A DNA stretch of 64,000 bases from a bacterium (GTDB lineage: Bacteria; Patescibacteriota; Minisyncoccia; Phycocordibacterales; UBA5272). This document shows, in pieces, positions 30,453-61,452 of this stretch. The notes beneath the pieces were generated by a model, which saw only the letters and a list, made by a program, of their open reading frames with translations, searched no databases and was not told where the DNA came from. A program made the position numbers and the translations under genes. The stretch is taken from contig JAIXVU010000002.1 in NCBI GenBank assembly GCA_027482685.1, positions 19,352 through 83,351 of the forward strand, in the 5' to 3' direction. The first letter of the stretch is position 1; the number at the start of each line of letters is the position of its first letter.

Positions 30453-31967
30453 TTACACTCCTCGTAGCACAGTAATCTTCGCACCGATACTGTTGAGACG
30501 TTCTGCAATATCAGCATATCCACGTTTGATAGAGTAGACATTGTGTAGCATGCTCGTACCTTCTGCTCCTAACATCGCAATTAATATAATAGCAGTTGGC
30601 CTAAGTGCTGGAGGGGATACAATCTGTGAGCCACGTAACTTAGATACACCTGTAACGAGCGCACGATGCGGATCAAGGAGTTTGATATCTGCTCCGAGAC
30701 GATTCAGTTCTGTGAAATATATTGCGCGGTTCTCCCATGTCCAATCGTGAATAAGAGTCTGACCCTCTGCAAAACATGCAATAGGAACGAAGAAGGGGAG
30801 ATTGTCGTTATTGATCCCTGGGAATGGCTGGGTATGTATCTTATCTGTTGGTGCTACAAGTTTAGACGGACTCACTGTTATATCCACGAGTTCTGTACGG
30901 CCATTCTTAGCGAAGTATTTCTTGGATAATTTATATTTGAGTCCCATGCGTTTTAGCTTCTCTAGCTCAAGTGTGAGGAACATAATAGGACATCTCATGA
31001 TAGTGAGTTTGGATTTTGTAACTATTGCAGCGGATAAGAAGAACATGCTCTCTATTGGGTCTTCACTATTATAGTGTTCAACATTTACATCAATATCTTT
31101 CTTGCCATGAACGGTAAGCGTAGTAGTTCCGATACCATCGATTCGCACCCCAAACCGTTCAAGTAAGAAACATACATCTTGTACTTGGTAGTTAGGCGGT
31201 GCAAACATGATAGTAGTTATACCTTCTATACGAGATGCTGCAATAATAGCCGTAATAGCGCCAGTATCTGATGACTCATAGAGAGGGATGGTACCAGCGT
31301 GTAACTTCTTGTGTGAAATAACGTAGTGGTCGGACTTGGTAACGATATTCACTCCTAGATATTCCAGAGCGTACTTGTGTGATGAGACAGTTCTCTCGCC
31401 CATCTTGCACCCGCCAGAGTGTGGGAGGTGGAATGTGTCAGTATTGTGAATGAATGCACCAACGAATGTAAAAGAGCGAATCTTCTCTGCAACAGCTTTA
31501 TTCATTTTTGAAAAAGCTAGTTTCTTCGGGGGTTTGATCTCAAGAGAAGTATCGTCGTTAATCCATTTTATCTTAACGCCTAGACTCTCAAGGAGTTCCT
31601 TGTATCTATAGACCTCTTCGATATGTGGAATGTCATGGAGAATAGTGGTGCCAGAGTTCACAAGTGCGGCTACCATCATGTTAATCGCTCCATTTTTGGA
31701 GGTGTTGGTTGTGATACTGCCTGATAACTTACGTCCACCTTCAACTTTGAAGTCAATAGTATCCTGGAGACTGATGATGTTATGTTTGAGAACATCACTC
31801 ATCTTGAGTAGTTGCTCAACTGTTACATTTTGGTTGCCAGACTCTACACGAGCGACAGCTGATTGTGAGGTCTTGAGTGAACGAGCAAAGTCTTCTTGGG
31901 TCATGCCACGTTCTTCACGGAGCTTTTTAATAAAAATACCTATTTTCTCTTGGTCATTTGGTGGCAT
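30453..31967 (-). CDS. murA: UDP-N-acetylglucosamine 1-carboxyvinyltransferase with N-terminal XRE-family HTH domain (HTH-MurA fusion)
   Basis: 504 aa; residues about 1-75 are an XRE HTH (MTQEDFARSLKTSQSAVARVESGNQNVTVEQLLKMSDVL). The remainder aligns to MurA (FKVEGGRKLSGSITTNTSKNGAINMMVAAL; LPHSGGCKMGERTVSSH with the catalytic Cys; C-terminal RGYADIAERLNSIGAKITVL). Confidence 0.75.
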   Translation of the reverse strand: MPPNDQEKIGIFIKKLREERGMTQEDFARSLKTSQSAVARVESGNQNVTVEQLLKMSDVLKHNIISLQDTIDFKVEGGRKLSGSITTNTSKNGAINMMVAALVNSGTTILHDIPHIEEVYRYKELLESLGVKIKWINDDTSLEIKPPKKLAFSKMNKAVAEKIRSFTFVGAFIHNTDTFHLPHSGGCKMGERTVSSHKYALEYLGVNIVTKSDHYVISHKKLHAGTIPLYESSDTGAITAIIAASRIEGITTIMFAPPNYQVQDVCFLLERFGVRIDGIGTTTLTVHGKKDIDVNVEHYNSEDPIESMFFLSAAIVTKSKLTIMRCPIMFLTLELEKLKRMGLKYKLSKKYFAKNGRTELVDITVSPSKLVAPTDKIHTQPFPGINNDNLPFFVPIACFAEGQTLIHDWTWENRAIYFTELNRLGADIKLLDPHRALVTGVSKLRGSQIVSPPALRPTAIILIAMLGAEGTSMLHNVYSIKRGYADIAERLNSIGAKITVLRGV

Positions 31968-41688: not shown

Positions 41689-42468
41689 TTATTTTGTATA
41701 GATATACTGCCCTGGTTCGTAACTAAATGTAGAAAATGGATAGATGCGGAGGAGAACTTGTCCTTTGATATTTTTTTCATCAAGTGGTCCCCAGTCACGG
41801 CTATCATAACTCTGTGAACGGTTATCTCCCATTACAAAGTAATGGTTCTCATCAAGAGTTAGATCAACATTTTTACGAGTTTCTTTGTAAGTAACATATG
41901 GCTCTTCAAGTGTGAATCCATTTGGCTCATCTTTGTTATAAATTGTCGTTACGCCATCTCGTACGACAACTCTTTCACCAGGAAGGCCGATAACACGTTT
42001 GATAAGATGCTTACCCGTGTACGGGTTACTACCACCTTCATAGAGCTTAAATATCATGACATCTCCGCGAGCTGGGGTCTCTACTAAGTATGAGAACTTA
42101 TCTACTAAAAGGAATTCTTTGTTGTGATATGTTGGAAGCATTGACCCACCATCTACAATAAAAGGTTGAATAATGAACCCTTGTACAAGCTTCACAATAA
42201 GAATCAATCCAATTATCCAAAAAAGAAGTGATGATGGACGCTCATCCTCTTCGAGTATCTTTATTGTCACTAATCCATTTCTCCATGAAGGTAAAAATGT
42301 TGCAAAGATAAGTGCAATAACTAAAAGTGTAAGGAAACTAAAAATAACAATTGAAACAGGGTTCTGTGTTACATCACTTAATGATTCGAGTACTGCGGTT
42401 GTAACAGAAGTAAATAAGGAGGACAACATTATGATGCGTAGTATATAGATTAGATTATCATTGTGCAA
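41689..42468 (-). CDS. lepB: signal peptidase I
   Basis: 259 aa; DGGSMLPTY (Ser box), GDNRSQSYDSRDWG (box E). Confidence 0.8.
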   Translation of the reverse strand: MHNDNLIYILRIIMLSSLFTSVTTAVLESLSDVTQNPVSIVIFSFLTLLVIALIFATFLPSWRNGLVTIKILEEDERPSSLLFWIIGLILIVKLVQGFIIQPFIVDGGSMLPTYHNKEFLLVDKFSYLVETPARGDVMIFKLYEGGSNPYTGKHLIKRVIGLPGERVVVRDGVTTIYNKDEPNGFTLEEPYVTYKETRKNVDLTLDENHYFVMGDNRSQSYDSRDWGPLDEKNIKGQVLLRIYPFSTFSYEPGQYIYTK

Positions 42469-45507: not shown

Positions 45508-45698
45508 GGATTAAGTCCGAAACGTTTCTTGTTAATAAAGAATAGTATTTATACTACAGTACAAGAGCGAAAAAAGCAATCAAAATACTTCTTCATGAGA
45601 CATTGACAAAGCCAAGGTATTTCTGTAGTGTTTTGGTACAAGTACTTATTAAACGTGTACCTAGTCTTACGAAAGAGTGTTACTATATCTATAATATT

Positions 45699-47453
45699 AT
45701 GAAAAAAGGAATTATTAGTCTGATGGTAGTAGGAGTTAGTCTTTTTGGCGTAACTCTTTATGCAGCACCAGCATTTACGTCAATGACATACTACCCTGAA
45801 GGGATAGGTTCATATGATGAATGGAATGTAGTTGGTGGTGATAAGATTAGTGCGGTAGATAACAACGACGGGGATACAACTTTTCTTACAGTCAATACAC
45901 AAGGAAAAGCACAGACATTTACTTTTTCTACCCCAGCTATTCCAGTAAACGCGATTATTGATACAGTAAGTCTCTATGTTTTTGCAAAAAAAGTTGATGC
46001 AGGGTATGAAGATGTGCCAATTTCAGAAGAGAACAACCCACGATTCAAGTTCCGTGTTGAAAACGCTACAGATGTAAGTGATGGTGATGAAAAGATTATT
46101 TCAAACACAGATGGGTACATACTTTACGATAGACACATGGGAGAGAATCCTTTTACAGGGCTGACATGGACTGTTGCTGATCTTACAGCAGCTCAAACAC
46201 GCTTCGGAATCGTGCGTACCAATGAAGGGTCTGAGACTGGTATTGAACCACGAGTTACTAAGTTTTGGGTAGATGTTCTCTACTCTGTGCCAGGAGATGT
46301 CGAAGGAGAGGGAGAGACTGGTGGAACCGGTGGAGGTAGTGGAACTTCTACAATTCCAGTTAGTACTGCAACATTTGCAACAACTACACCTGAACTTACG
46401 CTTGTTACATTTACCGCAAGTAGTAGTAATGCAACCAGTACATTTAGTCTCTCAACATCGAGCCCATCCGGTGCGGTAGTTGATCCAGTAACTGGAGTAT
46501 TCACATGGACCCCAACAGAGGCACAAGGACCTGGTGTATATACGTTTGATATCATCGCATCAAGCACTAGCGGTGTTGTAACAACAACGGTAACGATAAC
46601 AGTTACAGAACTAAACGCTACACCAACTGCAAGTGATGTTCTTAGTTCCACTCTTGTTAACATTCCCGTAACCGTCTCATTACTAGGAGCAGATGCAGAT
46701 GTGCCTGTACAGACACTTCTCTATACAATTATTACAGCACCTACAAATGGTACAACAACAGCAAGTGGAACATCTGTGCTGTATACACCAAATAGTGGTT
46801 TCATTGGAATAGATACATTCACCTATGTTGTATCTGATGGTATAGCAACAAGTAGTATTGCTACGACTACGATTAGTGTAATGGCAGGAGGTGGTAGTGG
46901 AGGTGGAGGAGGTAGCGGTAGTGAAGGCGGTACAACATTTTCAGGTGGAGGATCATCAGGTGGCGGTAGTGGATTCTTTGTAGGAAGCGGACCTGCTGGG
47001 CAAGTACTCGGTGCAAGCACTGGTGGAAGCGGAGCACGTACTGGGCAAGTGCTTGGAGCGTCAACATGTGGACTATATCTCGATAAATATTTACGATACG
47101 GATACAACAACGATGTTGAAAGTGTTAAGAAGTTGCAGAGATTTTTAAATGAAAATCTTGGTACATCTATTCCTGTTACAGGCTATTATGGACCACTCAC
47201 TGAGACTGCTGTGCGCACTCTACAGAAGAAGTATAAAGCTATGATGCTCACACCTTGGAAGTTAGATGAGTCAACTGGTATTGTGTATCTCACAACAGTT
47301 ACCGCTATTAACAACATTGTATGTCCAGAGCTTAATCTTCCTGTTCCGACTAACCTTGTGCCATTTAGTCTTCATCCAGATGTTCCTACTCGTTTATCAT
47401 TTATGTCAAAAGTTTTAGGCGTAAGTATGAGTACGGAGCCGTTTGCAAGATAA
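45699..47453 (+). CDS. secreted/cell-surface protein with tandem Ig-like (putative Ig / cadherin-like) repeats, Gly/Ser-rich linker and C-terminal peptidoglycan-binding (PG_binding_1-like) domain
   Basis: Signal peptide MKKGIISLMVVGVSLFGVTLYAAPA (start at the internal Met); repeats VVDPVTGVFTWTPTEAQGPGVYTFDIIAS; GGGSGGGGGSGSEGG linker; C-terminal YGYNNDVESVKKLQRFLNENLGTSIPVTGYYGPLTETAVRTLQKKY. Confidence 0.55.
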   Translation: MKKGIISLMVVGVSLFGVTLYAAPAFTSMTYYPEGIGSYDEWNVVGGDKISAVDNNDGDTTFLTVNTQGKAQTFTFSTPAIPVNAIIDTVSLYVFAKKVDAGYEDVPISEENNPRFKFRVENATDVSDGDEKIISNTDGYILYDRHMGENPFTGLTWTVADLTAAQTRFGIVRTNEGSETGIEPRVTKFWVDVLYSVPGDVEGEGETGGTGGGSGTSTIPVSTATFATTTPELTLVTFTASSSNATSTFSLSTSSPSGAVVDPVTGVFTWTPTEAQGPGVYTFDIIASSTSGVVTTTVTITVTELNATPTASDVLSSTLVNIPVTVSLLGADADVPVQTLLYTIITAPTNGTTTASGTSVLYTPNSGFIGIDTFTYVVSDGIATSSIATTTISVMAGGGSGGGGGSGSEGGTTFSGGGSSGGGSGFFVGSGPAGQVLGASTGGSGARTGQVLGASTCGLYLDKYLRYGYNNDVESVKKLQRFLNENLGTSIPVTGYYGPLTETAVRTLQKKYKAMMLTPWKLDESTGIVYLTTVTAINNIVCPELNLPVPTNLVPFSLHPDVPTRLSFMSKVLGVSMSTEPFAR

Positions 47454-47575: not shown

Positions 47576-48733
47576 ATGAGAAAAGTTTTAAGAAAAATCC
47601 TGCGCTTCCTCCATCATTTTTTCATCCCACACAAGCATAACGAATACCGCCCACATATTTTTCGTGAGGCGTCCATTGCAAGTATCTTACTTGTATCACT
47701 TATCACATTTGCAATCTCTATAACATCAGCGCTCATCATCACATCACCATCTGGAGCATCAATTGTTACTCGCGTGCTTGTAGATTTGACGAATGATCAT
47801 CGAATTAGTAATGGCCTTAATCCACTGTTTCATAACGAGACACTAGATAACGCTGCGCTACTTAAGGCAAAGGATATGGCGATGTGGGGCTACTTTGCTC
47901 ATTATAGTCCTACAGGGGTTACGCCGTGGAGTTTCTTTGATAAGGTGGGGTATGTGTTTCTCTTCGCAGGAGAAAATCTCGCGATTAATTTTACCGATTC
48001 ACGTGATATACAAGAAGCGTGGATGGCTTCTCCAACACATAGGAAAAATATTTTAGATCCTCGATTCAAGGAGATTGGTCTAGCAACACAGGAGGGGGTA
48101 TACGATGGCTATCCAACAATATATGTTGTGCAGTTCTTCGGTTCGCCTGCGCTTCGCTCTACAACTGTCGTTGCAACTACATCAACAAGTACGTCACAAA
48201 CGACTGGTAAGAAAAATAAAGCTATAACGTCTGTTACAAAAGCAACTTCAAGACCTTCTAACGAGTTTGCCGCAAACACTCGTGTAAAAGGAGCAGAGAC
48301 TACGCTTTCTGCAAATGATGTCATACCAGATGACGAACGCATAGCAGGCGGTCTAGTGTCTGCTACTCAAACGGAAGTTACAATACCTGAGTATAGCGAG
48401 CAGGCGTTTATAACTATTCTCGCAGGAGATACATCGTTTGCGTATAATACAGATCCAGAACTTCTAGCTACAAATACTACTTCTATGCAGATGGTTGTCT
48501 ATTCCACATGGTATGAGCGTAGCATGATGGCATTTCCACGTAACATACAGATAGTGTATACCATCGTACTCATCATTCTTTTACTAGCATCACTTTCATT
48601 TATTTGTATAGAAATTAGACGCGAACATCATAAACATATTATCTACACAGTTCTCATCGTTATAATTCTTCTTATCTTAATGTATCTCAATAAAGCCTAC
48701 ATCATCTCTCAAGTGCCATTTATAAAATTCTAG
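47576..48733 (+). CDS. CAP/SCP/PR-1 domain protein, membrane-anchored with Ser/Thr-rich linker
   Basis: 385 aa; CAP signatures NDHRISNGLNPL, HYSPTGV, GENLAINF, W..SPTHRKNIL, YVVQFF; N- and C-terminal TM segments. Confidence 0.65.
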   Translation: MRKVLRKILRFLHHFFIPHKHNEYRPHIFREASIASILLVSLITFAISITSALIITSPSGASIVTRVLVDLTNDHRISNGLNPLFHNETLDNAALLKAKDMAMWGYFAHYSPTGVTPWSFFDKVGYVFLFAGENLAINFTDSRDIQEAWMASPTHRKNILDPRFKEIGLATQEGVYDGYPTIYVVQFFGSPALRSTTVVATTSTSTSQTTGKKNKAITSVTKATSRPSNEFAANTRVKGAETTLSANDVIPDDERIAGGLVSATQTEVTIPEYSEQAFITILAGDTSFAYNTDPELLATNTTSMQMVVYSTWYERSMMAFPRNIQIVYTIVLIILLLASLSFICIEIRREHHKHIIYTVLIVIILLILMYLNKAYIISQVPFIKF

Positions 48734-53196: not shown

Positions 53197-53402
53197 AGAA
53201 CGTCATAAATTGCGAGACTATTTTGTCGCATAGATTTTTTTCAGTCACTGTACGTTTAAGCACATCTCCTTCAAAAAATATCAAAGACTTCGCGTGTTCT
53301 CATCAATTTTTGACGTTCATACTACTGCAAACCCAAGCATAGTGCTTTGAAATTACTTCTTTTCCACTATTAACTATCAACTATTAACTATATACTAGTT
53401 CT

Positions 53403-53927
53403 ATGTCATTCCTCACGCCACGTCAGCTTGTACAAGAACTATACATCAAACCAGGTGACAGAGTCGCTGATCTTGGCTGTGGTACCGGAGTCTATACTAT
53501 AGAACTTGCTCATGCTGTAGCTGAGATCGGGCAAGTTTTTGCAGTTGATGTACATCGTGAGGCACTTCATACCCTAGCAGGTACTCTTGATAAACAGTCC
53601 ATCCAAAATGTTGAAATGATATGGGCGGATCTAGAGAAGGCTATACCGATTGATGCCTACAGCCTGGATGCGGTAGTGGTGTCTAATATACTTTTTCAAC
53701 TACATGATATTGATGCAATGCTCTCTCATGTTGCAAAGTTATTAAAGCCAGAAGGGCAGATGCTTGTAGTTGAATGGAGTCATTCTCACGGTGGTATTGG
53801 TCCACATGCTGATCATGTGGTAAGTGAGCAAAAAGCTGAAGCGCTTGTCCAAAAGCATGGCTTCAGGCTCCTCAAACGTCTGCCTGCTGGGGATTATCAT
53901 TATGCATTTATCGCACTTTCCTTATAA
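53403..53927 (+). CDS. class I SAM-dependent methyltransferase
   Basis: 174 aa; motif I VADLGCGTGVYT. Confidence 0.6.
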   Translation: MSFLTPRQLVQELYIKPGDRVADLGCGTGVYTIELAHAVAEIGQVFAVDVHREALHTLAGTLDKQSIQNVEMIWADLEKAIPIDAYSLDAVVVSNILFQLHDIDAMLSHVAKLLKPEGQMLVVEWSHSHGGIGPHADHVVSEQKAEALVQKHGFRLLKRLPAGDYHYAFIALSL

Positions 53928-53936
53928 AATATAACT

Positions 53937-55241
53937 ATGTTACGTAACATTATCCTTGGTGTTGGAGTCTTTGCAGCATTATTCTCTATTCTAATCTTTT
54001 CTGGAAGAGTTCCTTTTGGAGGTGGGGATAAAGCCAACGTACCAAAAGGAGATGTAAACGTCTGGGGAACACTACCATCAGCTGTGATGGCTCCAATTAT
54101 TCAAGTCTTTAACCCTCAAGCAAAGACATACAAAGTTGTGTATCGTGAAGTCCCGGAAGAGATGTTTGCTTCCTATCTTCTTGAGGCTTTAGCCAACGGC
54201 ACTGGGCCAGATGTTATCATGGGTCCGCATGAGCTCATACTATCTCAATCAGCGCGTATCTATCCTTTTCCGCTAAGCTCGATGCCAGAGGCTACGTTTA
54301 GACAGAGTTATGTTGACGGGGCGCAAGTATTCCTTACTCCAAGTGGTGCTATTGCATTACCTGTTGCTATTGACCCTATGGTGCTTTTTTATAATAGACG
54401 TATTTTTTCTAAGGAAGGTGTAGTGAATCCTCCAGTATATTGGGATGAAGTAACATCACTTGTTCCTAAACTTACAAAAATTGACGATAGCGGAGCTTTT
54501 ATTCAGTCGGGGATAGGTCTTGGTGCAGCGACTACACCGTACTCAAAAGATATTCTTATGGCAATCGTTGGTCAGTTAGGGCAAGTGCCTCTTCTTAGAC
54601 AATACGCTGCAGATACAAGTACTTATGTAACGGTAACAGCAAATACCCCAGTACAAAAAGATGGTAATGTGAAGCCTCTTTCTGATGCGCTTCGTTATTT
54701 TACACAATTTGCTGATACCGCTAAGACAACGTATACATGGAATGATTTTGCAGGCCGTGCGGACGATCAGTTCGTCGCAGAAAAGCTCGCTATGTACCTT
54801 GGTTATGCTGGTGAGTATGATGTACTTCGTGCACGTAATCCAAAAGGAGATTATGGAATGGCAACATTTCCACAAACACGAGACTATAACACATTTGTTA
54901 CTGGAGGAAAGCTCTACGGTATAGCAACGCTTAAGAACACACGTAATCTTCTAGCTTCGCTTACTGTCCAGTCACAGTTTGGAGGGCCAGCCGTTGCGCA
55001 AGCGTTAGCTACAGGTTTTGGAGGAGTACCTGCGCTACGAGCGTATGCAACAACTCCTGGAATAGATCCAGTTATCGCAAAGAGCATGCTCGTGACTAGT
55101 CCATGGTACGATATCTACAAAGACCGTTCTAGTCAGTTAGTAATGACGATGATAGCAGATGTTGTAAATGGTCGTGCGGGGCCGACAGATGCTGCGTCAG
55201 CATTTGTAGCTCGATTGCAAGATCTCTATACTACCAAGTAA
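53937..55241 (+). CDS. membrane-anchored extracellular solute-binding-protein-like protein
   Basis: 434 aa; N-terminal TM anchor then periplasmic-binding-protein-like composition; no adjacent permease genes. Confidence 0.4.
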   Translation: MLRNIILGVGVFAALFSILIFSGRVPFGGGDKANVPKGDVNVWGTLPSAVMAPIIQVFNPQAKTYKVVYREVPEEMFASYLLEALANGTGPDVIMGPHELILSQSARIYPFPLSSMPEATFRQSYVDGAQVFLTPSGAIALPVAIDPMVLFYNRRIFSKEGVVNPPVYWDEVTSLVPKLTKIDDSGAFIQSGIGLGAATTPYSKDILMAIVGQLGQVPLLRQYAADTSTYVTVTANTPVQKDGNVKPLSDALRYFTQFADTAKTTYTWNDFAGRADDQFVAEKLAMYLGYAGEYDVLRARNPKGDYGMATFPQTRDYNTFVTGGKLYGIATLKNTRNLLASLTVQSQFGGPAVAQALATGFGGVPALRAYATTPGIDPVIAKSMLVTSPWYDIYKDRSSQLVMTMIADVVNGRAGPTDAASAFVARLQDLYTTK

Positions 55242-55250
55242 CACAATACC

Positions 55251-56114
55251 ATGAACTATTTTTTGAAATTACTCGGTGTAAGTTTCTGTATAAGTTTTAT
55301 TATTCTTGGTAGTTTTGCTATAGGTACTCCTACTCGTGTCTATGCTCAGAGTGGCCCGTCGCTTTCAGGAGATGATGTGTGTGGGAGTTCATCTTCTACA
55401 AAATGTACTTTAGATGACGGGAAGAGAATAATTCGCGCTTTTGTTACTAACCTTGTTATCCCTATTGGTCTTACCCTTCTTACTGTGTTTATTATTTTAC
55501 GTATTCTCATGGCACAGAAAGCTCTTATGGAAGGAAATGCTAATGCGTACAAAGAAGCAAGCAAGAAGATTGCAAACGCTATCGTCAGTTTCGTTGTTAT
55601 TGTTGCGGTTATTGGTGGGTTAGCACTTGCAATCCTAAGGTTCTTAGGAGTAGAAGATACATTCACGTTCCTTTTATCGTATGAGACTACACCATATTCT
55701 CAAGTTTTTGTTAATGCTTTTGTTTCAACGGCATACGCCCAAGAACCAACCTGTGGCCCTGGTGCAGGTAGTACATGCCTTAACAATCCTGTAGGTATAA
55801 CTAGTCTGTATGATTTTATTTTAACTGTGGTTAGGCTTTTTATAAGATGGTTCGTTTTTCCAGCGATTATCTTCATGTGGGTATTTACTGGCTTTAAGTT
55901 CGTAGCTGCACAAGGTAGACCAGACGAGATAGTGAAAGCAAAGAAATGGTTGCTCTGGGGTATTATTGCAACCGTAGTCGTTGCTCTTACTGAAGGGTTC
56001 TTGTTTGCAATTCGTGGAACAGTGAATGCAATTCTACCAGGAGCAGCAGTTAATATCATAGACTACGGTACTATACTTGCGACAGTGATTTCAACTATTA
56101 CTAGGTATTTATAA
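55251..56114 (+). CDS. tandem-duplicated two-TM pilin-like protein (two TrbC/VirB2-like modules)
   Basis: 287 aa; module 1 has a signal peptide ending VYAQ, a CxxxxxxC pair, TM1, a KE-rich loop and TM2. Module 2 repeats the same plan (AYAQ, CxxxxxxxC, TM1, loop, TM2). Confidence 0.4.
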   Translation: MNYFLKLLGVSFCISFIILGSFAIGTPTRVYAQSGPSLSGDDVCGSSSSTKCTLDDGKRIIRAFVTNLVIPIGLTLLTVFIILRILMAQKALMEGNANAYKEASKKIANAIVSFVVIVAVIGGLALAILRFLGVEDTFTFLLSYETTPYSQVFVNAFVSTAYAQEPTCGPGAGSTCLNNPVGITSLYDFILTVVRLFIRWFVFPAIIFMWVFTGFKFVAAQGRPDEIVKAKKWLLWGIIATVVVALTEGFLFAIRGTVNAILPGAAVNIIDYGTILATVISTITRYL

Positions 56115-56191
56115 TGTACTATGATTATTTTCATAGCTGAACATAGTAATTATAGGTAGGCTCTGATACACTTTGTGATGTAATTATATAT

Positions 56192-56923
56192 ATGATAAAA
56201 AAATATCTACAAAATAAACGTGCACTATCTATCGGTATAGTCTTTGCTTTAGCTTTACCTACACTCCTTCATGCACAAGGGGCTGCTCAAACACAAGCAA
56301 CGGGAGCATTCGGGTCACTTGCTGCAGTGGTAGATAATTTTACTAACACGGTGGTTGCGGCTCTTGGCTCGCTCTTTGTTGCGGCGGGTACAGTAGCGTT
56401 CTTTTATGGAATGGTGCAGTATATATGGGGAGTACGCCAAGGAGATGCGGGTAAGGCAAAGGTTGGTAATAGTTTCATGGTGTGGGGGCTAGTTGGTGTG
56501 TTTGTCATGGTCTCTGTGTGGGGAATAGTGTATTGGTTCCAGAGTATATTCGGTATCCAAAATCAGAATAACATTGTTATCCCGCGTATTCAGATTGGAG
56601 GAGCTCCGCAAGCTAATAGAGGTGCCACCCCAGCCCAGCCTCTAGGATCTCCAGGAGCTACAGCACCGAGTAACGCTGGAGCAACACCAACGAGCTGTGC
56701 AGGTCTTCAGCCGGGGTCAGCGTGTAGATTACGAGATGGTTCTACAGGTTTTTGTACCGCTTCAGGGTGTATGTCTTCTCCCCCGACCGGTTCGGCAGCA
56801 AACGATCCGAATGCTATATGTCGAACGTGGGGCCCTGGAACTGGGTGTACACTAAATGGACAGCGAGCAGTGTGTACGGCAAACAATATCTGTGCCTTTG
56901 AGGACCAACTAATGGGTCCATAA
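56192..56923 (+). CDS. two-TM pilin-like protein with Pro/Gly-rich linker and C-terminal 8-Cys domain
   Basis: 243 aa; signal peptide ending LHAQ; TM1 AAGTVAFFYGMVQYIWG; loop GDAGKAKVGN; TM2 FMVWGLVGVFVMVSVWGIV; the C-terminus has 8 Cys. Confidence 0.4.
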   Translation: MIKKYLQNKRALSIGIVFALALPTLLHAQGAAQTQATGAFGSLAAVVDNFTNTVVAALGSLFVAAGTVAFFYGMVQYIWGVRQGDAGKAKVGNSFMVWGLVGVFVMVSVWGIVYWFQSIFGIQNQNNIVIPRIQIGGAPQANRGATPAQPLGSPGATAPSNAGATPTSCAGLQPGSACRLRDGSTGFCTASGCMSSPPTGSAANDPNAICRTWGPGTGCTLNGQRAVCTANNICAFEDQLMGP

Positions 56924-57015
56924 TTTTTTTATATGGCAATTGTCCACAGGGAATCCCTTAATTACTTGCAATAGGTCTGAAAGGGGATATACTTATAATT
57001 ATACACAATAAATAT

Positions 57016-57438
57016 ATGAAAAAAGCTTTAATCACATTATCACTTCCACTTGTTACCGTAGGAGCTGCACTCGCGCAGATTCAAGGAGCAATCACTAATC
57101 AGACAGGAACAGGTTCTGTTGCAGGACAGGGTCTAATCAACCTTATCAATACAGCACAAACAATTCTTAGTCTTCTTGTTCCACTTTTTATTGGTGTTGC
57201 GGTTATTGTATTCTTCTACTTCCTTGTTAAGTTTATTACCCAAGGAGCAGAGTCTGGAGATAAAAGATCAGAAGCTATTAAAGGAATGGCGTTTTCGGTT
57301 CTTGCGCTTTTCGTAATGGTATCTATCTGGGGTCTTGTCGGACTGCTCGGGTCATTCGTCGGTGTTAATCAAGGAGGTAATGTCCCTGCACCTGGTATCC
57401 CTGTACCATGTGGTGGCGCAACAGGACGTCCTTGCTAA
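57016..57438 (+). CDS. two-TM pilin-like protein (TrbC/VirB2-like architecture)
   Basis: 140 aa; signal peptide ending ALAQ; TM1 LLVPLFIGVAVIVFFYFLVKFI; loop GAESGDKRSEAIKG; TM2 MAFSVLALFVMVSIWGLVGLLG; C-terminal PCGGATGRPC. Confidence 0.4.
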   Translation: MKKALITLSLPLVTVGAALAQIQGAITNQTGTGSVAGQGLINLINTAQTILSLLVPLFIGVAVIVFFYFLVKFITQGAESGDKRSEAIKGMAFSVLALFVMVSIWGLVGLLGSFVGVNQGGNVPAPGIPVPCGGATGRPC

Positions 57439-57459
57439 GTATATTTTCTAAAGATTAAA

Positions 57460-57500
57460 GCAAACAAAACTCTCTGTCTAGAGAGTTTTGTTTTTGTGAG
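57460..57500 (+). terminator. hairpin terminator (caaaactctct-gtctag-agagagttttg + T-run)
   Basis: Read directly after the 57016-57438 stop. Confidence 0.5.
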
Positions 57501-57512
57501 AATATAACTGTC

Positions 57513-57908
57513 ATGTATACTTGTTATTATAATCACACGTGCAACATCGCCATGACATCACTATCTTCTAGAATAAAAGAAAGCATCAGCTTCATTTGTC
57601 TCTATCTCACAACAGTAACTCTTTCATTTGCGCAAAATCTAAATAGTATTGTTATCGACGGAGAAACACTTTTTGAACGTGTTGTTAATGAGATACTTAA
57701 CCCAATCTATCAGTTCATGGTTGCTATTGCAGCATTGTATTTTCTTTATGGTGTTGCGAAGTTTATCTATGATCTTAATGACCCAGAGAAGAAAAATTTT
57801 GGGAAGAGTCACCTTCTCTATGGGATGATAGGAATGTTCATTATACTTTCAGTCGGTGGAATACTTCCATGGTTAAACGGCATCATTGGTGGAATGTTCC
57901 AGTATTAG
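57513..57908 (+). CDS. two-TM pilin-like protein (paralog of the three preceding genes)
   Basis: Leader ending SFAQ; TM1 IYQFMVAIAALYFLYGVAKFIY; loop DLNDPEKKNFGKSH; TM2 LLYGMIGMFIILSVGGIL. The start is probably an internal Met (MTSLSS...). Confidence 0.35.
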   Translation: MYTCYYNHTCNIAMTSLSSRIKESISFICLYLTTVTLSFAQNLNSIVIDGETLFERVVNEILNPIYQFMVAIAALYFLYGVAKFIYDLNDPEKKNFGKSHLLYGMIGMFIILSVGGILPWLNGIIGGMFQY

Positions 57909-57914
57909 AGTACG

Positions 57915-58014
57915 GGCTAGAGAGTTAGGGTTTAGAGGATAGAGAAAAGCTGAAGCCAAAGGCTTCAGCTTTTCTAGTTTACTAACCCCTAGCCCCTAAA
58001 CACTAACCCCTAGG
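57915..58014. repeat. intergenic palindromic element: perfect 13-bp hairpin (agaaaagctgaagcc-aaa-ggcttcagcttttct) flanked by inverted ctag/ttaggg stop-rich arms
   Basis: Read directly between the pilin-like cluster and glyQS. Confidence 0.5.
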
Positions 58015-58034
58015 TGTGTTAGAATAAACAAACT

Positions 58035-59429
58035 ATGCCAGAAAACATACCAACATCTAAGAATGCATCACGCATGGAAGCTATCGTCTCACTCTGTAAG
58101 CGTCGAGGGTTCATTTTTCAAGGGTCTGAGATATATGGCGGACTCGCGGGAACTTTTGATTATGGCCCATATGGTGTGCTACTTAAGCGTGCAATAGAGA
58201 ATGCATGGTGGGATTTCTTTGTTACTCGTCGTGATGATATGTATGGACTAGATGCAAGCATCATCTCAAGTGAGAAGATATGGGAGGCAAGTGGTCACCT
58301 TACCGGCTTTACCGATCCTCTTGTAGAAGATACAAAGACCAAGAAAAATTACCGCGCAGACCATATTATAGAAGATGCTGGGCATGTTGCAGTGGGATTA
58401 ACTCCAGAGCAAATGTCAGCGCTTATTCGTGAGAAAGGTATCAAGAGTCCAGATGGTAATGAGCTAGGAGAGGCGAAGACATTTAACCTCCTCTATCCAG
58501 TACAGATGGGGGCATCTTCGGGGACAGCGTCTACCGCATATCTTCGTGGCGAGCTTGCGCAAGGGATGTTCACCAATTACAAGAATGTAATGGATAGTGT
58601 TCATCCTAAGCTTCCTTTTGGACTTGCTCAAGTAGGTAAGGCATTTCGTAACGAGATAGCACCGAGAGATTATACTTTTCGTACACGTGAGTTTAACTTG
58701 ATGGAGTTTGAATATTTCTTTGACCCACGTCTCGGCAATTGGCAAGAGTTGTTTGAAATGTGGCGTACAGAAATGTATACATGGATGGATCATGTTGGTA
58801 TCAAGAAAGACATGACACACGAGATAGAGAAGCAGGGACCAGATCTCGCGCACTACAGTAAGCGTACTATTGATATTGAGTTTGATTTTCCTTTCGGGCA
58901 GAAAGAGTTGTATGGTCTTGCATATCGTACTGACTATGATCTTACACAACATCAGGCTCATAGCGGTATTTCACATGCATATGTTGATGATACAACAGGT
59001 GAGAAGTTCATTCCACATGTACTTGAGCCGACGTTTGGTATTGATAGAACAATTCTTGCGGTACTCACAAGCGCGTATAATGAGGAAGTTGTAGGGGAGG
59101 GAGATACACGTACAGTGTTACGCTTCCAACCACGTATCGCGCCAGTTCAGATTGCAGTGCTTCCTCTTTCAAAAAAAGAAGAACTTACCAAACCTGCACA
59201 AGAGATAGTTGCCATACTCCGTAAACTATTCCGTACATCATATGATGAGACACAGTCAATCGGTAAGCGTTATCGTAGACAGGATGAGATAGGGACACCA
59301 TACTGTGTGACGGTTGATTTTGATACACTTACTGATAACGCAGTTACTGTGCGAGACCGCGATACCATGGAGCAGGTGCGTATCCCAGTTGCGGAGCTTG
59401 CGACATACTTTACTTCTAAAATTTTGTAG
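58035..59429 (+). CDS. glyQS: glycine--tRNA ligase (alpha2 dimeric type)
   Basis: 464 aa; RRGFIFQGSEIYGGLAGTFDYGPYGVLLKRAIENAWW and class II motifs; size and sequence typical of the archaeal/eukaryal-like GlyRS found in many bacteria. Confidence 0.85.
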   Translation: MPENIPTSKNASRMEAIVSLCKRRGFIFQGSEIYGGLAGTFDYGPYGVLLKRAIENAWWDFFVTRRDDMYGLDASIISSEKIWEASGHLTGFTDPLVEDTKTKKNYRADHIIEDAGHVAVGLTPEQMSALIREKGIKSPDGNELGEAKTFNLLYPVQMGASSGTASTAYLRGELAQGMFTNYKNVMDSVHPKLPFGLAQVGKAFRNEIAPRDYTFRTREFNLMEFEYFFDPRLGNWQELFEMWRTEMYTWMDHVGIKKDMTHEIEKQGPDLAHYSKRTIDIEFDFPFGQKELYGLAYRTDYDLTQHQAHSGISHAYVDDTTGEKFIPHVLEPTFGIDRTILAVLTSAYNEEVVGEGDTRTVLRFQPRIAPVQIAVLPLSKKEELTKPAQEIVAILRKLFRTSYDETQSIGKRYRRQDEIGTPYCVTVDFDTLTDNAVTVRDRDTMEQVRIPVAELATYFTSKIL

Positions 59430-59444
59430 TATACTTCTAGGTAT

Positions 59445-60242
59445 ATGGAGCGATTCGCATCAGAACAAGTAGGTAATGAGGTACATCATCCTCCAAAGAA
59501 TCTTGAGATAGGAGAAAATACATTAGAACGTAACAAAGGTCGTGAAGGAAAAGTCCTTCGTTCAAGTTTTGCTGGTATAAAAGCTCTTGCTGACAAAAAA
59601 GCTCGAGCGCTTGCAGCTGCTGCACTTGTTGGTCTTGGTGGGGCTGGGCTTGCAAACAATGTCGAAGCACAGACACCCGTATGGAATGGGCAATACCAAG
59701 GACAACAGGGTTTTGTAAATCCAAATGGATCTCAAGGTGGTTGGGGGCAGGGTGGTAGAATTGTTGGAACCGCAGAGAATGTTGCTAGAGGAATAGGGGC
59801 AAGTATTATTAATCAAGTGATTGCTCCAACAGATGTACAGGTAGTCGGCTTACAAAATGGCAAACCTATATTCTCGTTTAATCCACAAGTTTTAATGCAA
59901 AAAGCCCCTCAGGGGTATGAGTGGGGTATTCAAAATGAAGCACGCGAACTAATGTCCCAAATGGGGCTGACACCTTCACGTCCAGGAGAAGTGTTTTCTA
60001 TATTAAATACACGTAATCCAAACGATAGAATAGACGGAACAACTTTACAACTAGGTCAAGGTACTCGCAAAGTTGTTGTAGAGGTTGCAAGAGATAACAT
60101 TGGGCTTATGCTGAAAGTGCTTTCAGAGGTTACTGATCCTACTACAGGTGGAAGGTATCGGTTAGCACAAGAAATGCCCTTTACTGTTGGGGCAGATGGT
60201 CGTATTCAGACAGGCTCAGTGTCTAGCCAGAGATTACCTTAG
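59445..60242 (+). CDS. hypothetical secreted Gly/Gln-rich protein
   Basis: 265 aa; hydrophobic segment ALAAAALVGLGGAGLANNVEAQ; no known motif. Confidence 0.3.
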   Translation: MERFASEQVGNEVHHPPKNLEIGENTLERNKGREGKVLRSSFAGIKALADKKARALAAAALVGLGGAGLANNVEAQTPVWNGQYQGQQGFVNPNGSQGGWGQGGRIVGTAENVARGIGASIINQVIAPTDVQVVGLQNGKPIFSFNPQVLMQKAPQGYEWGIQNEARELMSQMGLTPSRPGEVFSILNTRNPNDRIDGTTLQLGQGTRKVVVEVARDNIGLMLKVLSEVTDPTTGGRYRLAQEMPFTVGADGRIQTGSVSSQRLP

Positions 60243-60490: not shown

Positions 60491-60546
60491 AACATACTAA
60501 AAATTATCGCCCGCGCGATAATTTTTAGTTAGAGATGGTTAAAGAC

Positions 60547-60588
60547 GGGCGGCCACCTTTGCATTCTGTGGCCGCCTGTTTTTTCCGT
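60547..60588 (+). terminator. rho-independent terminator (ggcggccac-ctttgcattct-gtggccgcc + TGTTTTTT)
   Basis: Read directly downstream of rpmG. Confidence 0.6.
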
Positions 60589-60618
60589 ATGCTACACTTT
60601 CTGTATTCTTGTAGTCTT

Positions 60619-61452
60619 ATGTCAGATATTTTTCCACCAAAAGACTTTGTGCATTTGTATCAAGATAGAGACTTCCTGCGAGCCTTATTTCCAAATGACT
60701 TGTATACAATTGTAGGTGATGATGGTGCAATTGGTCGGGCGTATACATTCGGACCTTTACAGATTGAGTACTACACAACTGATAGAGAGCCGAACATTTT
60801 GCCATTTCGTGGCATGCGTATTATCTTCTGGAACTCTATCACTCATACAATACCACCATATGGATGGAACGTTCTTCCTTTTAAGAATATTCTTGCTTCA
60901 TATGCATATATAGATATATCAGACAGTAACTATTGGCAGAGATGGAGCGAGACATTTAGAAGACAGAGAAGACTATGGGATACACAAAAAGAATATGAGA
61001 TACACATGTTAGATGAAGCTACCTATACTTCACTCTATCAACAATATGGAATATCTTCGTATTGTATATATATGACAACAAAGGTGTTACGAAAAGCGCT
61101 AGCGCTAGATACAAGTAATGTACGTATGTATGGGCTAGCAAGAAAAAGTGATGGGGTGATTGTTACAGGTGTTGCAACTATTAACAGTATGACCTCAGAA
61201 CAATCATACTACCTATCCTCTTTTACTAGAAAAGATATTGCTCCTTCTGCTTCTGGGTTGTGGCTGTTATCGAGCTGGATGGAGGAGATAAGGCAATGTG
61301 GATTACGATATGCTAATTTAGGAGTGATGTGGTCAGAAGGGATGTCTACAAGCTGGAAAGGATTTAGTGCTTTTAAGGCGAAGTTCAAACCATCTATACT
61401 TACTTTTCCAAAGCAATTCTACAAGATTACCTTTTCATTACGAAAAAAGTAA
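60619..61452 (+). CDS. hypothetical protein, possible FemAB/BioF2-like GNAT-fold (Acetyltransf_6) transferase
   Basis: Start at the internal MSDIFPP; C-terminal region VIVTGVATIN...QSYYLSSFTRKDIAPSASGLWLLSSWMEEIRQCGLRYANLG fits the a..Y..gGs....a...Lqw.ai..a...G...fdfGG pattern loosely. Confidence 0.3.
   Translation: MSDIFPPKDFVHLYQDRDFLRALFPNDLYTIVGDDGAIGRAYTFGPLQIEYYTTDREPNILPFRGMRIIFWNSITHTIPPYGWNVLPFKNILASYAYIDISDSNYWQRWSETFRRQRRLWDTQKEYEIHMLDEATYTSLYQQYGISSYCIYMTTKVLRKALALDTSNVRMYGLARKSDGVIVTGVATINSMTSEQSYYLSSFTRKDIAPSASGLWLLSSWMEEIRQCGLRYANLGVMWSEGMSTSWKGFSAFKAKFKPSILTFPKQFYKITFSLRKK

What the first reader, a model, noticed from the sequence alone, without database searches (positions are those of the whole stretch)
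53403..57908. Cluster of four adjacent genes encoding five paralogous signal-peptide / two-TM 'pilin-like' modules with Cys-containing extracellular segments
Genes 55251-56114, 56192-56923, 57016-57438 and 57513-57908 each encode the same plan: a hydrophobic leader ending in a conserved [YHLF]-A-Q motif (VYAQ, AYAQ, LHAQ, ALAQ, SFAQ), TM helix 1, a 10-14 residue charged loop (GDAGKAKVGN / GAESGDKRSEAIKG / DLNDPEKKNFGKSH), and a Gly-rich TM helix 2. A variable tail follows: 8 Cys in 56192, PCGG...RPC in 57016, and CxxxxxxC pairs ahead of TM1 in both halves of 55251. This is the architecture of TrbC/VirB2-type conjugative/T4SS pilins, but no VirB4/VirB6/VirD4 genes are in the window. The genes sit between a methyltransferase, a membrane-anchored SBP-like protein and glyQS. 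A tandem array of diversified pilin-like paralogs with disulfide-capable tips, in an organism thought to live attached to host cells, could be a surface filament/adhesin system or a T4SS-pilus-like apparatus whose machinery is encoded elsewhere. It is not explained by any housekeeping function.
Basis: partly seen in the sequence, partly recalled or inferred. Interest (0 to 1): 0.7.

Follow-up and report, generated by a model that had tools for sequence, protein, structure and literature searches.

The report
Patescibacterial VirB2-like pilin gene array
Four adjacent genes in this ultra-small (Patescibacteria/CPR) bacterium encode five diverged copies of a small secretion-system "pilin" membrane protein, a kind of gene array already described in this phylum, here locked into a deeply conserved operon with a sugar-binding-type protein and a methyltransferase.

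Summary
Genes 55251-56114 (two modules), 56192-56923, 57016-57438 and 57513/57552-57908 each encode a leader ending A-x-A|Q, two TM helices around a charged loop, and a variable tail. Three of the four pass the Pfam PF18895 (T4SS_pilin) threshold; the fourth is homologous to them. The organism is a Paceibacteria/Nomurabacteria-type patescibacterium.

Tandem arrays of 2-11 divergent VirB2-like pilins in Patescibacteria are already published (Quinonero-Coronel 2025; Wang 2023), so this is a new member of a known kind.

What I add:
- Each array position has positional orthologs (34-55% identity, against 14-28% between paralogs).
- The array sits in a conserved LactB3-GyrA-MTase-SBP-pilins locus in about 50 distinct related loci. 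MTase, SBP and first pilin are only -4 to +24 nt apart, even where the SBP is only 26-32% identical.
- The two-module gene is a fusion that keeps an internal AYA|Q site.
- Extracellular tails always carry an even number of Cys (52 of 52).
- No VirB4, VirB6 or VirD4 lies within 10 kb in any locus.

Best reading: Sec-exported pilin subunits of a T4SS encoded elsewhere, with disulfide-rich exposed tips. This is unproven. No similarity to canonical VirB2 was detected by profile comparison, and the fold match is non-specific.

The parts
53403..53927 (+). 174-aa class I SAM-dependent methyltransferase. It is the first gene of the conserved MTase-SBP-pilin operon.
   Evidence: Methyltransf_31/25/11 at E 1e-14 to 1e-17. 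It lies 9 nt upstream of the SBP gene. It is present next to the SBP and pilin array in nearly all related loci, with gaps of -22 to +142 nt. In some relatives pilin genes lie on both sides of it.
53937..55241 (+). 434-aa membrane-anchored family-1 (carbohydrate-type) solute-binding-protein-like protein. It has no Cys and an N-terminal TM anchor (aa 1-23).
   Evidence: Weak MalE match. Orthologs hit PF01547/PF13416. A profile of the family hits sugar ABC SBP structures at E 7e-9. Its stop codon is 9 nt from the first pilin start here, and -4 to +24 nt in most of the 24 metagenome loci, which are 26-55% identical.
55251..56114 (+). 287-aa two-module pilin fusion. Features in order: leader 55251-55346 (VYA|Q); C-x7-C 55380-55406; hairpin 1 at 55428-55652; linker ending in the internal AYA|Q site 55653-55739; C-x7-C 55752-55778; hairpin 2 at 55806-56024.
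   Evidence: PF18895 at 36.8 bits with two stretches. The AF2 model shows two helical hairpins. The Cys pair and A161/A163 are conserved in 38 homologs. The two modules are separate genes in distant relatives L034, L036 and L037.
56192..56923 (+). 243-aa pilin with a Cys-rich tail. Features in order: leader 56192-56275 (LHA|Q); hairpin 56339-56557; two tandem 25-aa four-Cys motifs at 56696-56770 and 56819-56893.
   Evidence: PF18895 at 20.2 bits, below the gathering threshold of 26.6, but 37-39 bits to the two neighbouring pilins. There are 8 Cys in the tail. Orthologous tails are 8-530 aa long and always carry an even Cys count.
57016..57438 (+). 140-aa pilin. Features in order: leader 57016-57075 (ALA|Q); hairpin 57133-57366; C-terminal PCGGATGRPC 57406-57435.
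   Evidence: PF18895 at 26.7 bits. In 111 orthologs the -1 Ala is invariant and the +1 Gln is at least 90% conserved. The AF2 model shows hairpin H34-76/H81-115 with a core pLDDT of 85-95.
57462..57493 (.). Terminator-like palindromic hairpin between the third and fourth pilin genes, followed by a TATACT -10 box at 57516-57521.
   Evidence: 14-bp stem found by the scan. Equivalent hairpin plus TATACT arrangements precede the orthologous gene in L007, L008 and L009.
57552..57908 (+). 118-aa pilin (131 aa if started at 57513). Features in order: leader-like 57552-57632 (SFA|Q); hairpin 57693-57899.
   Evidence: PF18895 at 30.7 bits and NF045849 at 28.6 bits, the latter below its cut-off of 40. 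Public gene calls differ on the start: M14 in L001, L049 and L050 (118 aa), the upstream ATG in L002 (131 aa). Most of the 27 orthologs lack a signal peptide and are 83-101 aa long.
41689..42468 (-). Signal peptidase I. It is the candidate enzyme for the A-x-A|Q leader cleavages. This link is an inference, and the gene is not part of the cluster.
   Evidence: Peptidase_S26 at 131 bits.

Best explanation
The locus is a chromosomal array of four genes (five modules) for VirB2-like 'T4SS_pilin' (PF18895) subunits of a Paceibacteria-type patescibacterium. It is co-transcribed with a membrane-anchored sugar-type SBP-like protein and a small SAM methyltransferase.

Proposed mechanism, step by step:
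1. Each precursor is exported by Sec. Signal peptidase I cuts after the conserved A-x-A, leaving an N-terminal Gln. This step is inferred from the motifs.
2. The mature protein is a two-helix hairpin in the membrane. Both termini face outward and the short basic loop faces the cytoplasm. This step is supported by hydropathy and by the AF2 models.
3. The subunits are then extracted and polymerised, or assembled at the channel, by the MPF_FATA-like T4SS that most Patescibacteria encode elsewhere, typically near dnaA. This step is inferred from family membership and the literature. It is not shown for this genome.
4. The five modules are not interchangeable variants. They are five anciently diverged, positionally conserved subunit types, which points to a heteromeric structure such as a major subunit plus minor or tip subunits.
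5. The hypervariable N- and C-terminal extensions carry paired cysteines. They would be disulfide-bonded decorations on the exposed surface, with a likely role in contact with the host cell.
6. The two-module gene arose by fusion of two adjacent pilin genes. It probably still releases two subunits through cleavage at the retained internal AYA|Q site. This step is an inference.
For: Family membership and architecture:
- PF18895 hits for all four genes, three of them above the gathering threshold.
- Mutual homology of the single-module genes.
- Helical-hairpin AF2 models.

Leader cleavage:
- The A|Q cleavage motif is conserved. The -1 Ala is invariant in 111 orthologs and at least 90% conserved across 52 diverse family representatives.
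- The same A-x-A|Q leader end appears in 7 canonical VirB2/TrbC proteins.
- An SPase I gene is present in the window.

Conserved subunit types:
- Paralogs share 14-28% identity; positional orthologs share a median of 34-55%.
- Gene order is conserved in about 50 distinct related loci.

Disulfide-rich tails and the fusion:
- Tail Cys counts are even in 52 of 52 non-zero cases.
- The internal AYA|Q is conserved in 38 homologs, and the two modules are separate genes in distant relatives.

Literature:
- VirB2-like pilin arrays of 2-11 genes averaging about 25% identity occur in Patescibacteria. VirB4 is found in 2,417 of 3,035 assemblies. Pilins lie near virB4 in 1,135 of 1,948 assemblies (PMC12102498).
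- The pilin array inside the T4SS cluster is essential in S. epibionticum (PMC10633639; PMC12857230).
- T4SS-pilin-domain genes are among the most highly expressed unknown genes in Paceibacterales (PMC10936435).
Against: - No VirB4/VirB6/VirD4-type gene was found in the 64-kb window among the ORFs scanned.
- None was found in the 10 kb downstream.
- None was found among the large ORFs of about 50 related 10-20 kb loci.
- The tightly coupled partners, an SBP and a methyltransferase, are not known T4SS components.
- No PF04956 hit was obtained, and profile-profile comparison with MPF_T VirB2/TrbC gives nothing (probability 0.3-9.5%).
- Most orthologs of the last pilin lack a signal peptide.
- The presence of a T4SS in this genome was not tested.
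- No pilus has been seen in any Paceibacteria in the papers I read.
Confidence: 0.55

Rival explanations
1. The MTase-SBP-pilin operon is a self-contained surface or envelope module that works without the T4SS. The hairpin proteins would form a membrane or cell-surface oligomer that operates with the anchored sugar-type SBP, for example to capture host glycans or nutrients, or as an adhesion platform. The methyltransferase would modify one of the components.
For: Gene coupling is very tight: MTase to SBP to first pilin with gaps of -4 to +24 nt. It persists down to 26-32% SBP identity and 59-68% GyrA identity. In some relatives pilin genes lie on both sides of the MTase and SBP genes. No T4SS gene was found within 10 kb in about 50 loci. 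The SBP has no adjacent ABC permease or ATPase. Fusions of two and three modules recur in the family. These are easy to reconcile with a fixed membrane oligomer.
Against: The whole region from GyrA to GlyRS or IF-2 is syntenic, so part of the linkage could simply be inherited gene order. Members of the same Pfam family lie inside T4SS clusters elsewhere, and there they are essential together with the T4SS. There is no precedent for an SBP working with hairpin proteins. No energising component is encoded in the operon.
Confidence: 0.2
2. The proteins are T4SS components that do not form an extended pilus. As monoderm 'pilin-like' conjugal-transfer proteins, they would stay in the membrane and cell wall as part of the translocation channel or a short stub.
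For: Two of the genes match NF045849, the Mbov_0395 family of pilin-like conjugal transfer proteins of Mycoplasma ICEs, at E 9e-7 and 2e-4. The patescibacterial VirB4 clade is nested in MPF_FATA, a monoderm class that generally lacks pili.
Against: The NF045849 scores (28.6 and 21.1) are below the cut-off of 40. Long, hypervariable, disulfide-rich extracellular tails and very high expression in related Paceibacterales fit exposed structural subunits better than buried channel parts.
Confidence: 0.15
3. The genes encode unrelated small membrane proteins, such as holins, bacteriocin immunity proteins or type IV (PilA-type) pilins, that only look pilin-like.
For: A two-TM hairpin is a generic architecture, and the fold searches are non-specific.
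Against: There is no PHROG match at E up to 0.01. No other Pfam family scores significantly, while PF18895 does. The leaders end A-x-A|Q, not in the G|F/M...E5 class III signal of type IV pilins. The context is a conserved housekeeping chromosomal region, not a prophage or a bacteriocin cluster.
Confidence: 0.03

Closest known systems
VirB2-like pilin arrays of Patescibacteria (Quinonero-Coronel et al. 2025, Microb Genom, PMC12102498; the essential six-pilin array in the T4SS cluster of Southlakia epibionticum, Wang et al. 2023, Cell, PMC10633639)
   Same: It is the same Pfam family (PF18895) in the same phylum. The paralogs are tandem and sequence-divergent (14-28% identity here, about 25% on average in the paper). 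The predicted helical-hairpin subunits are the same. The array is chromosomal and there is no relaxase context.
   Different: This array is not in or near a T4SS cluster. Instead it is embedded in a conserved GyrA-MTase-SBP-pilins-GlyRS housekeeping locus of Paceibacteria/Nomurabacteria-type genomes. It includes a fused two-module gene and a subunit with a disulfide-rich tail. The published arrays were reported as most abundant in Microgenomatia and Saccharimonadia. The SBP and MTase coupling is not mentioned in that paper.
Canonical conjugative/T4SS pilins: VirB2 (Ti plasmid), TrbC (RP4), TraA (F); Pfam PF04956
   Same: Each has a long leader cleaved after A-x-A with Gln at +1. Seven VirB2/TrbC sequences end AAAQ, AHAQ, ALAQ or ATAQ. 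Each has two hydrophobic helices joined by a short basic loop, and a small size.
   Different: No sequence or profile similarity was detected. The host is a monoderm. There are no adjacent virB genes. Several subunits carry long Cys-rich N- or C-terminal extensions, which would preclude head-to-tail cyclisation of the VirB2/TrbC type.
Archaeal conjugative/DNA-import pilins (pilin of Pyrobaculum calidifontis conjugative pili, PDB 8dft)
   Different: Sequence identity is 10%. The match is not statistically distinctive among helical hairpins, so homology is not established.
Mbov_0395 family pilin-like conjugal transfer proteins of Mycoplasma ICEs (NCBIfam NF045849)
   Same: These are small two-TM proteins of monoderm T4SSs. 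The matches are weak but non-random: 28.6 bits (E 9e-7) for 57513 and 21.1 bits for 57016.
   Different: The scores are below the family cut-off of 40. The genes are not on an ICE, and no conjugation genes are nearby.

Membership tests
Pfam PF18895 T4SS_pilin | Score at or above the Pfam gathering threshold (26.6 bits) | tested here: met
   55251 scores 36.8 bits (two stretches), 57513 scores 30.7 and 57016 scores 26.7. 56192 scores only 20.2, but it hits the other two single-module genes at 37-39 bits by phmmer.
Pfam PF18895 T4SS_pilin | Leader, then TM helix, short polar loop and a second TM helix (a helical hairpin) | tested here: met
   Hydropathy. AF2 hairpins with core pLDDT of 85-95.
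Patescibacterial VirB2-like pilin array (PMC12102498) | At least 2 pilin genes in tandem, or separated by a single non-pilin gene, in a patescibacterial genome | tested here: met
   There are four adjacent genes with five modules. Homologs carry the names Candidatus Paceibacterota and Nomurabacteria.
Patescibacterial VirB2-like pilin array (PMC12102498) | High divergence between the paralogs of one array (about 25% average identity, 54% maximum) | tested here: met
   14-28% identity, mean 21%, over the HMM match columns.
Patescibacterial VirB2-like pilin array (PMC12102498) | The genome also encodes the patescibacterial-clade VirB4 and partners | not testable with these tools
   Only the 64-kb window plus 10 kb downstream could be read. 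None was found there.
TrbC/VirB2 family (PF04956; MPF_T VirB2) | Detectable sequence or profile homology | tested here: not met
   No PF04956 hit at E up to 1. hhalign against 7 VirB2/TrbC sequences gives a probability of 0.3% and 9.5%.
TrbC/VirB2 family (PF04956; MPF_T VirB2) | Leader peptide cleaved at A-x-A|Q by signal peptidase I | tested here: inconclusive
   The motif is present and conserved, and an SPase I gene lies in the window. No signal-peptide predictor or experiment was available.
TrbC/VirB2 family (PF04956; MPF_T VirB2) | Encoded within a virB/trb/tra operon with VirB3, VirB4 and VirB6 | tested here: not met
   Absent from the window and from about 50 related loci.
TrbC/VirB2 family (PF04956; MPF_T VirB2) | Fold equivalent to solved conjugative pilins | tested here: inconclusive
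TrbC/VirB2 family (PF04956; MPF_T VirB2) | Polymerises into an extracellular pilus; some members are head-to-tail cyclised | not testable with these tools
   This needs microscopy or mass spectrometry.
NCBIfam NF045849 Mbov_0395 pilin-like conjugal transfer protein | Score at or above the cut-off of 40 bits | tested here: not met
   28.6, 21.1 and 9.9 bits.
Type IV pilins (PilA/ComGC, class III signal peptide) | Short basic leader ending in G, then a hydrophobic helix with Glu at +5; a single N-terminal TM helix | tested here: not met
   The leaders end A-x-A|Q and there are two TM helices per module. There is no T4P pilin Pfam hit.
Phage holins and other phage small membrane proteins | Match to a PHROG or holin family | tested here: not met
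   No PHROG match at E up to 0.01.

The most novel reading that the evidence does not exclude
The deeply conserved, translationally coupled methyltransferase / carbohydrate-type SBP / multi-pilin operon next to gyrA is a distinct organelle of Paceibacteria. It would be a heteromeric VirB2-like filament or membrane assembly, with subunits decorated by disulfide-rich tips, that is functionally wired to an orphan SBP and a dedicated methyltransferase. It would be used to bind the host cell or extract material from it, possibly independently of the classical T4SS ATPases.
Probability: 0.15. Interest if true: 0.75.

Novelty: new member of a known kind. Interest (0 to 1): 0.38.

Why it matters
Patescibacteria make up a large share of uncultivated bacterial diversity and live attached to host cells. 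Their T4SS and its unusual pilin arrays are essential in the one species tested, yet their function is described as completely unknown (PMC11665869).

This locus shows four things about Paceibacteria-type genomes:
- The pilin array is a fixed set of anciently diverged subunits.
- It sits at a conserved housekeeping site, away from virB4.
- It is always coupled to an orphan sugar-type SBP and usually to a small methyltransferase.
- Its exposed ends are hypervariable and disulfide-bonded.

This yields concrete candidates for experiments on how these cells contact their hosts: the SBP, the methyltransferase, the internal cleavage site and the Cys-rich tips. It does not reveal a new kind of system.

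Tried and rejected
- Foldseek of the 57016 model against the PDB found no hit at E of 0.001 or better.
- A profile search of 111 orthologs against PDB sequences gave only chance TM matches.
- hhalign against seven genuine VirB2/TrbC sequences, fetched from plasmids, showed no similarity.
- tblastn of the mature last pilin against 72,556 plasmids found nothing.
- PHROGs gave nothing, which rejects holin or other phage readings.
- I searched the supplements of the T4SS survey for the names of related MAGs (UBA11704, nzgw469 and others), to learn whether those genomes carry VirB4. None was found.
- I tried to extend upstream of the window through its first gene. No exact record exists.
- The AFDB50 fold library was unavailable.
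- I looked for VirB4 among all large ORFs of the related loci. They are IF-2, ClpB, BipA, LepA, aminotransferases and the like.
- I considered antigenic-variation-type interchangeable copies, as in Bartonella and Anaplasma virB2 paralogs. I rate this less likely, because each array position has its own conserved ortholog lineage.
- A first identity calculation was wrong because insert columns were mis-parsed. It was corrected.

Full report
**1. Observation**

The four ORFs are present on the + strand at the stated coordinates.

Kyte-Doolittle analysis shows an N-terminal hydrophobic leader and two transmembrane segments per module. Gene 55251-56114 has a leader plus four TM segments, which makes it two modules.

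The leaders end in V-Y-A|Q, L-H-A|Q, A-L-A|Q and S-F-A|Q. A fifth motif, A-Y-A|Q, lies between the two modules of 55251.

The Cys features are as described: 8 Cys in the tail of 56192 and PCGGATGRPC at the end of 57016. The pairs in 55251 are C-x7-C rather than C-x6-C.

The modules are homologous beyond chance. Pfam PF18895 (T4SS_pilin) matches all four proteins at E 4e-9 (two stretches), 6e-4, 6e-6 and 3e-7, and three of these exceed the gathering threshold. The three single-module proteins find each other at 37-39 bits. An HMM of the five modules finds no further copy in any frame of the window.

The last gene most likely starts at Met14 (57552). A strong hairpin (57462-57493) and a TATACT -10 box (57516-57521) overlap the upstream ATG. 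Public gene calls differ: three use Met14 and one uses the upstream ATG.

**2. Organism and surroundings**

Orthologs carry the names Candidatus Paceibacterota and Nomurabacteria. The window is therefore from a CPR/Patescibacteria genome, on a 121.7-kb contig in NCBI.

The rest of the window is housekeeping plus envelope genes:
- a polysaccharide-biosynthesis cluster at 1-24 kb;
- FtsZ and FtsA;
- HisRS;
- signal peptidase I (41689-42468);
- thioredoxin reductase;
- a Big_9/PG-binding protein and a CAP-domain protein;
- GyrA, GlyRS, L33, GAPDH and RpiB.

None of the ten ORFs of about 400 aa or more, nor the 30 further ORFs I scanned, is VirB4-, VirD4- or VirB6-like. The 10 kb downstream is central metabolism.

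**3. What the proteins are**

AlphaFold2 with 111 orthologs gives a helical hairpin for 57016 (H34-76/H81-115, core pLDDT 85-95) after a low-confidence leader. For 55251 it gives two such hairpins joined by a low-confidence linker.

Direct homology to canonical TrbC/VirB2 is not detectable:
- there is no PF04956 hit at E up to 1;
- hhalign against seven annotated VirB2/TrbC proteins that I retrieved from plasmids gives a probability of 0.3-9.5%.

One shared detail is notable. All seven canonical proteins also end their leader with A-x-A|Q. In the window family, the -1 Ala is invariant in 111 orthologs of 57016 and at least 90% conserved across 52 diverse representatives. The +1 Gln is at least 90% conserved in the 111 orthologs.

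Two genes weakly match the Mycoplasma ICE 'pilin-like conjugal transfer protein' family, below its cut-off. There is no PHROG match. The leaders are not type IV prepilin signals.

The family is large. The 57016 profile finds 6,321 50%-identity cluster representatives at E of 0.001 or better, including proteins with two and three fused modules.

**4. Comparative genomics**

Lookups of orthologs and a scan of GTDB species genomes with the SBP profile gave about 30 patescibacterial loci, including a few duplicate contigs. I mapped all of them.

The gene order is conserved: Lactamase_B_3, a small ORF, GyrA, a variable segment, MTase, SBP, the two-module pilin, the Cys-tail pilin, the 57016-type pilin (often with a paralog), the 57513-type pilin, GlyRS and L33. 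In many loci two extra genes lie between the Cys-tail pilin and the 57016-type pilin; they are absent here.

Each window pilin has positional orthologs. Median core identity is 34-55%, whereas the five modules within the window share only 14-28%.

In the most distant genomes (SBP 30-35% identical), the two modules of 55251 are two separate genes, each with its own leader. The window gene is therefore a fusion.

In 38 homologs of the fusion, the Cys pair after the first leader and the inter-module H-A-Y-A-Q motif are conserved. Some homologs carry large Cys-rich insertions directly after that motif. This fits a retained cleavage site, with an extracellular N-terminus for module 2.

A second, independent scan of metagenome contigs used only the family motif F[VI]M[VAL][SA][IV]WG[IL] and returned 30 loci of at least 9 kb:
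- In 24 of the 25 loci that extend upstream, the array of 4-8 pilin genes directly follows the SBP gene.
- GyrA lies upstream in all 24, and a recognisable MTase in 18.
- SBP identity to the window is only 26-55%, and GyrA identity is 59-91%.
- The gap from the SBP stop to the first pilin start is -4 to +24 nt in most, with several ATGA overlaps. The MTase-to-SBP gap is -22 to +142 nt.

In some genomes pilin genes lie on both sides of the MTase and SBP genes. The methyltransferase and the SBP-like protein are thus conserved operon partners, not incidental neighbours.

The SBP is a membrane-anchored, Cys-free, family-1 carbohydrate-type SBP. A profile of it hits sugar ABC SBP structures at E 7e-9. 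No ABC permease or ATPase lies beside it.

None of the large ORFs in any of these loci is a T4SS ATPase.

**5. Variable, disulfide-capable ends**

Tail lengths range from 8 to 530 aa in the 56192 group and from 3 to 209 aa in the 55251 group. Every tail that contains Cys has an even number of them (52 of 52). This is strong evidence for extracellular disulfides.

The window's 56192 tail holds two tandem 25-residue four-Cys motifs (CAGLQPGSACRLRDGSTGFCTASGC and CRTWGPGTGCTLNGQRAVCTANNIC). The same motif is repeated four times in the tail of a different pilin type in locus L010. The small knots therefore appear to move between subunits.

One relative has a 737-aa first pilin with an FN3-like N-terminal domain.

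Most orthologs of the last pilin lack a signal peptide (83-101 aa). The three most distant ones start with a very short M...AYA|A peptide. The window's leader on this gene is thus a minority state.

**6. Literature**

The kind of array is already described.
- Quinonero-Coronel et al. 2025 searched 3,035 patescibacterial genomes with PF18895, PF04956 and CONJScan pilin profiles. They found VirB2-like pilins in 1,948 VirB4-containing assemblies, near virB4 in 1,135 of them. They also found 441 arrays of 2-11 pilin genes with about 25% mean identity. VirB4 was present in 2,417 assemblies and in Paceibacteria usually lies near dnaA.
- Wang et al. 2023 showed that a series of pilin genes inside the T4SS cluster of Southlakia epibionticum is essential. 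A 2025 review calls this a six-pilin VirB2-like array.
- In Paceibacterales enrichments, T4SS-pilin-domain genes are among the most highly expressed genes of unknown function.
- The T4SS survey does not mention an SBP, gyrA or this methyltransferase.

**7. Mechanism and verdict**

The best explanation (about 0.55) runs as follows:
1. The precursors are Sec-exported and processed by SPase I.
2. The mature subunits are hairpins with both ends outside the cell.
3. They form five conserved, non-interchangeable types.
4. They are assembled by the T4SS encoded elsewhere into a heteromeric pilus or stub.
5. The exposed ends of that structure carry hypervariable, disulfide-rich modules for host contact.

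Shown here: family membership, architecture, conservation, the gene fusion, the even-Cys rule and the operon coupling. Inferred: leader and internal cleavage, topology, T4SS dependence, filament formation and host binding.

Rival explanations:
- a T4SS-independent module built around the SBP (0.2);
- a non-filamentous T4SS membrane component (0.15);
- unrelated small membrane proteins (0.03).

The finding is not new in kind: it is a new member of the published patescibacterial VirB2-like pilin arrays. The conserved MTase-SBP coupling and the tail rules are modest additions. Interest: 0.38.

Noticed in passing
window 53378-53405, 56990-57018, 58010-58037; L007 10440-10480; L008 10490-10527: No Shine-Dalgarno-like sequence precedes any gene of the cluster. 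TATACT or TATAAT-like -10 boxes lie only 6-9 nt before several ATGs: the MTase gene here and the last pilin gene in relatives. This suggests leaderless or very short-leader mRNAs in this lineage.
   Followed up: partly
L007 8764-9818 (also L009 8687-9822 and L008 9168-9721): In many relatives two further genes sit inside the array, between the Cys-tail pilin and the 57016-type pilin. One encodes a 270-290 aa protein with a Gly/Ser-rich N-terminus, one TM segment, a coiled coil and a 4-Cys C-terminal domain. The other encodes a 75-83 aa two-TM protein. Both are absent from the window. The larger one has no Pfam match.
   Followed up: partly
L022 7746-9248 (-) and L023 1317-2828 (-): A protein of about 500 aa with a DCC1-like thiol-disulfide oxidoreductase domain lies just upstream of the MTase-SBP-pilin operon in two relatives. 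It may be relevant to the disulfide-rich pilin tails.
   Followed up: no
L127 6640-8853: In this locus the first pilin after the SBP is 737 aa long. It has an FN3-like (Pur_ac_phosph_N) domain ahead of a C-terminal T4SS_pilin module (34.5 bits). This is an example of a large passenger domain on a pilin.
   Followed up: partly
P0164, P0165, P0176, P0184, P0196, P0207: Single polypeptides carrying three tandem pilin modules (about 330-360 aa) recur in the family, so fused 'poly-pilins' are not unique to the window. Most lack an A-x-A|Q motif between modules.
   Followed up: partly
window 1-24000: This region is a large surface-polysaccharide biosynthesis cluster. It includes several GT2, GT-D, GT11 and DXD glycosyltransferases, FkbM- and TylF-type methyltransferases, a flippase, a DegT aminotransferase, epimerases/dehydratases, a TPP enzyme and a 746-aa Wzy_C/O-antigen-ligase-like protein.
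   Followed up: no
window 30453-31967 (-): A 504-aa protein has an N-terminal HTH_3 (XRE-type) domain fused to a full-length EPSP_synthase/MurA-type enolpyruvyl transferase domain. This is an unusual architecture.
   Followed up: no
window 45603-47453 (+) and 47576-48733 (+): These are a 616-aa protein with Big_9/cadherin-like Ig and PG_binding_1 domains, and a 385-aa CAP (cysteine-rich secretory protein) domain protein. Both are candidate surface or host-interaction proteins a few kb upstream of the pilin locus.
   Followed up: no
window 59445-60242 (+) and 60535-61452 (+): Two ORFs after GlyRS (265 aa and 305 aa) have no Pfam or NCBIfam match. The 265-aa one has no counterpart in the related loci. 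The 305-aa one has only one weak counterpart (31% identity, in L032).
   Followed up: no
L003 3664-5277: An AIPR (abortive-infection phage-resistance) protein gene is inserted between GyrA and the MTase in one relative. The GyrA-MTase gap is therefore a variable insertion spot.
   Followed up: no
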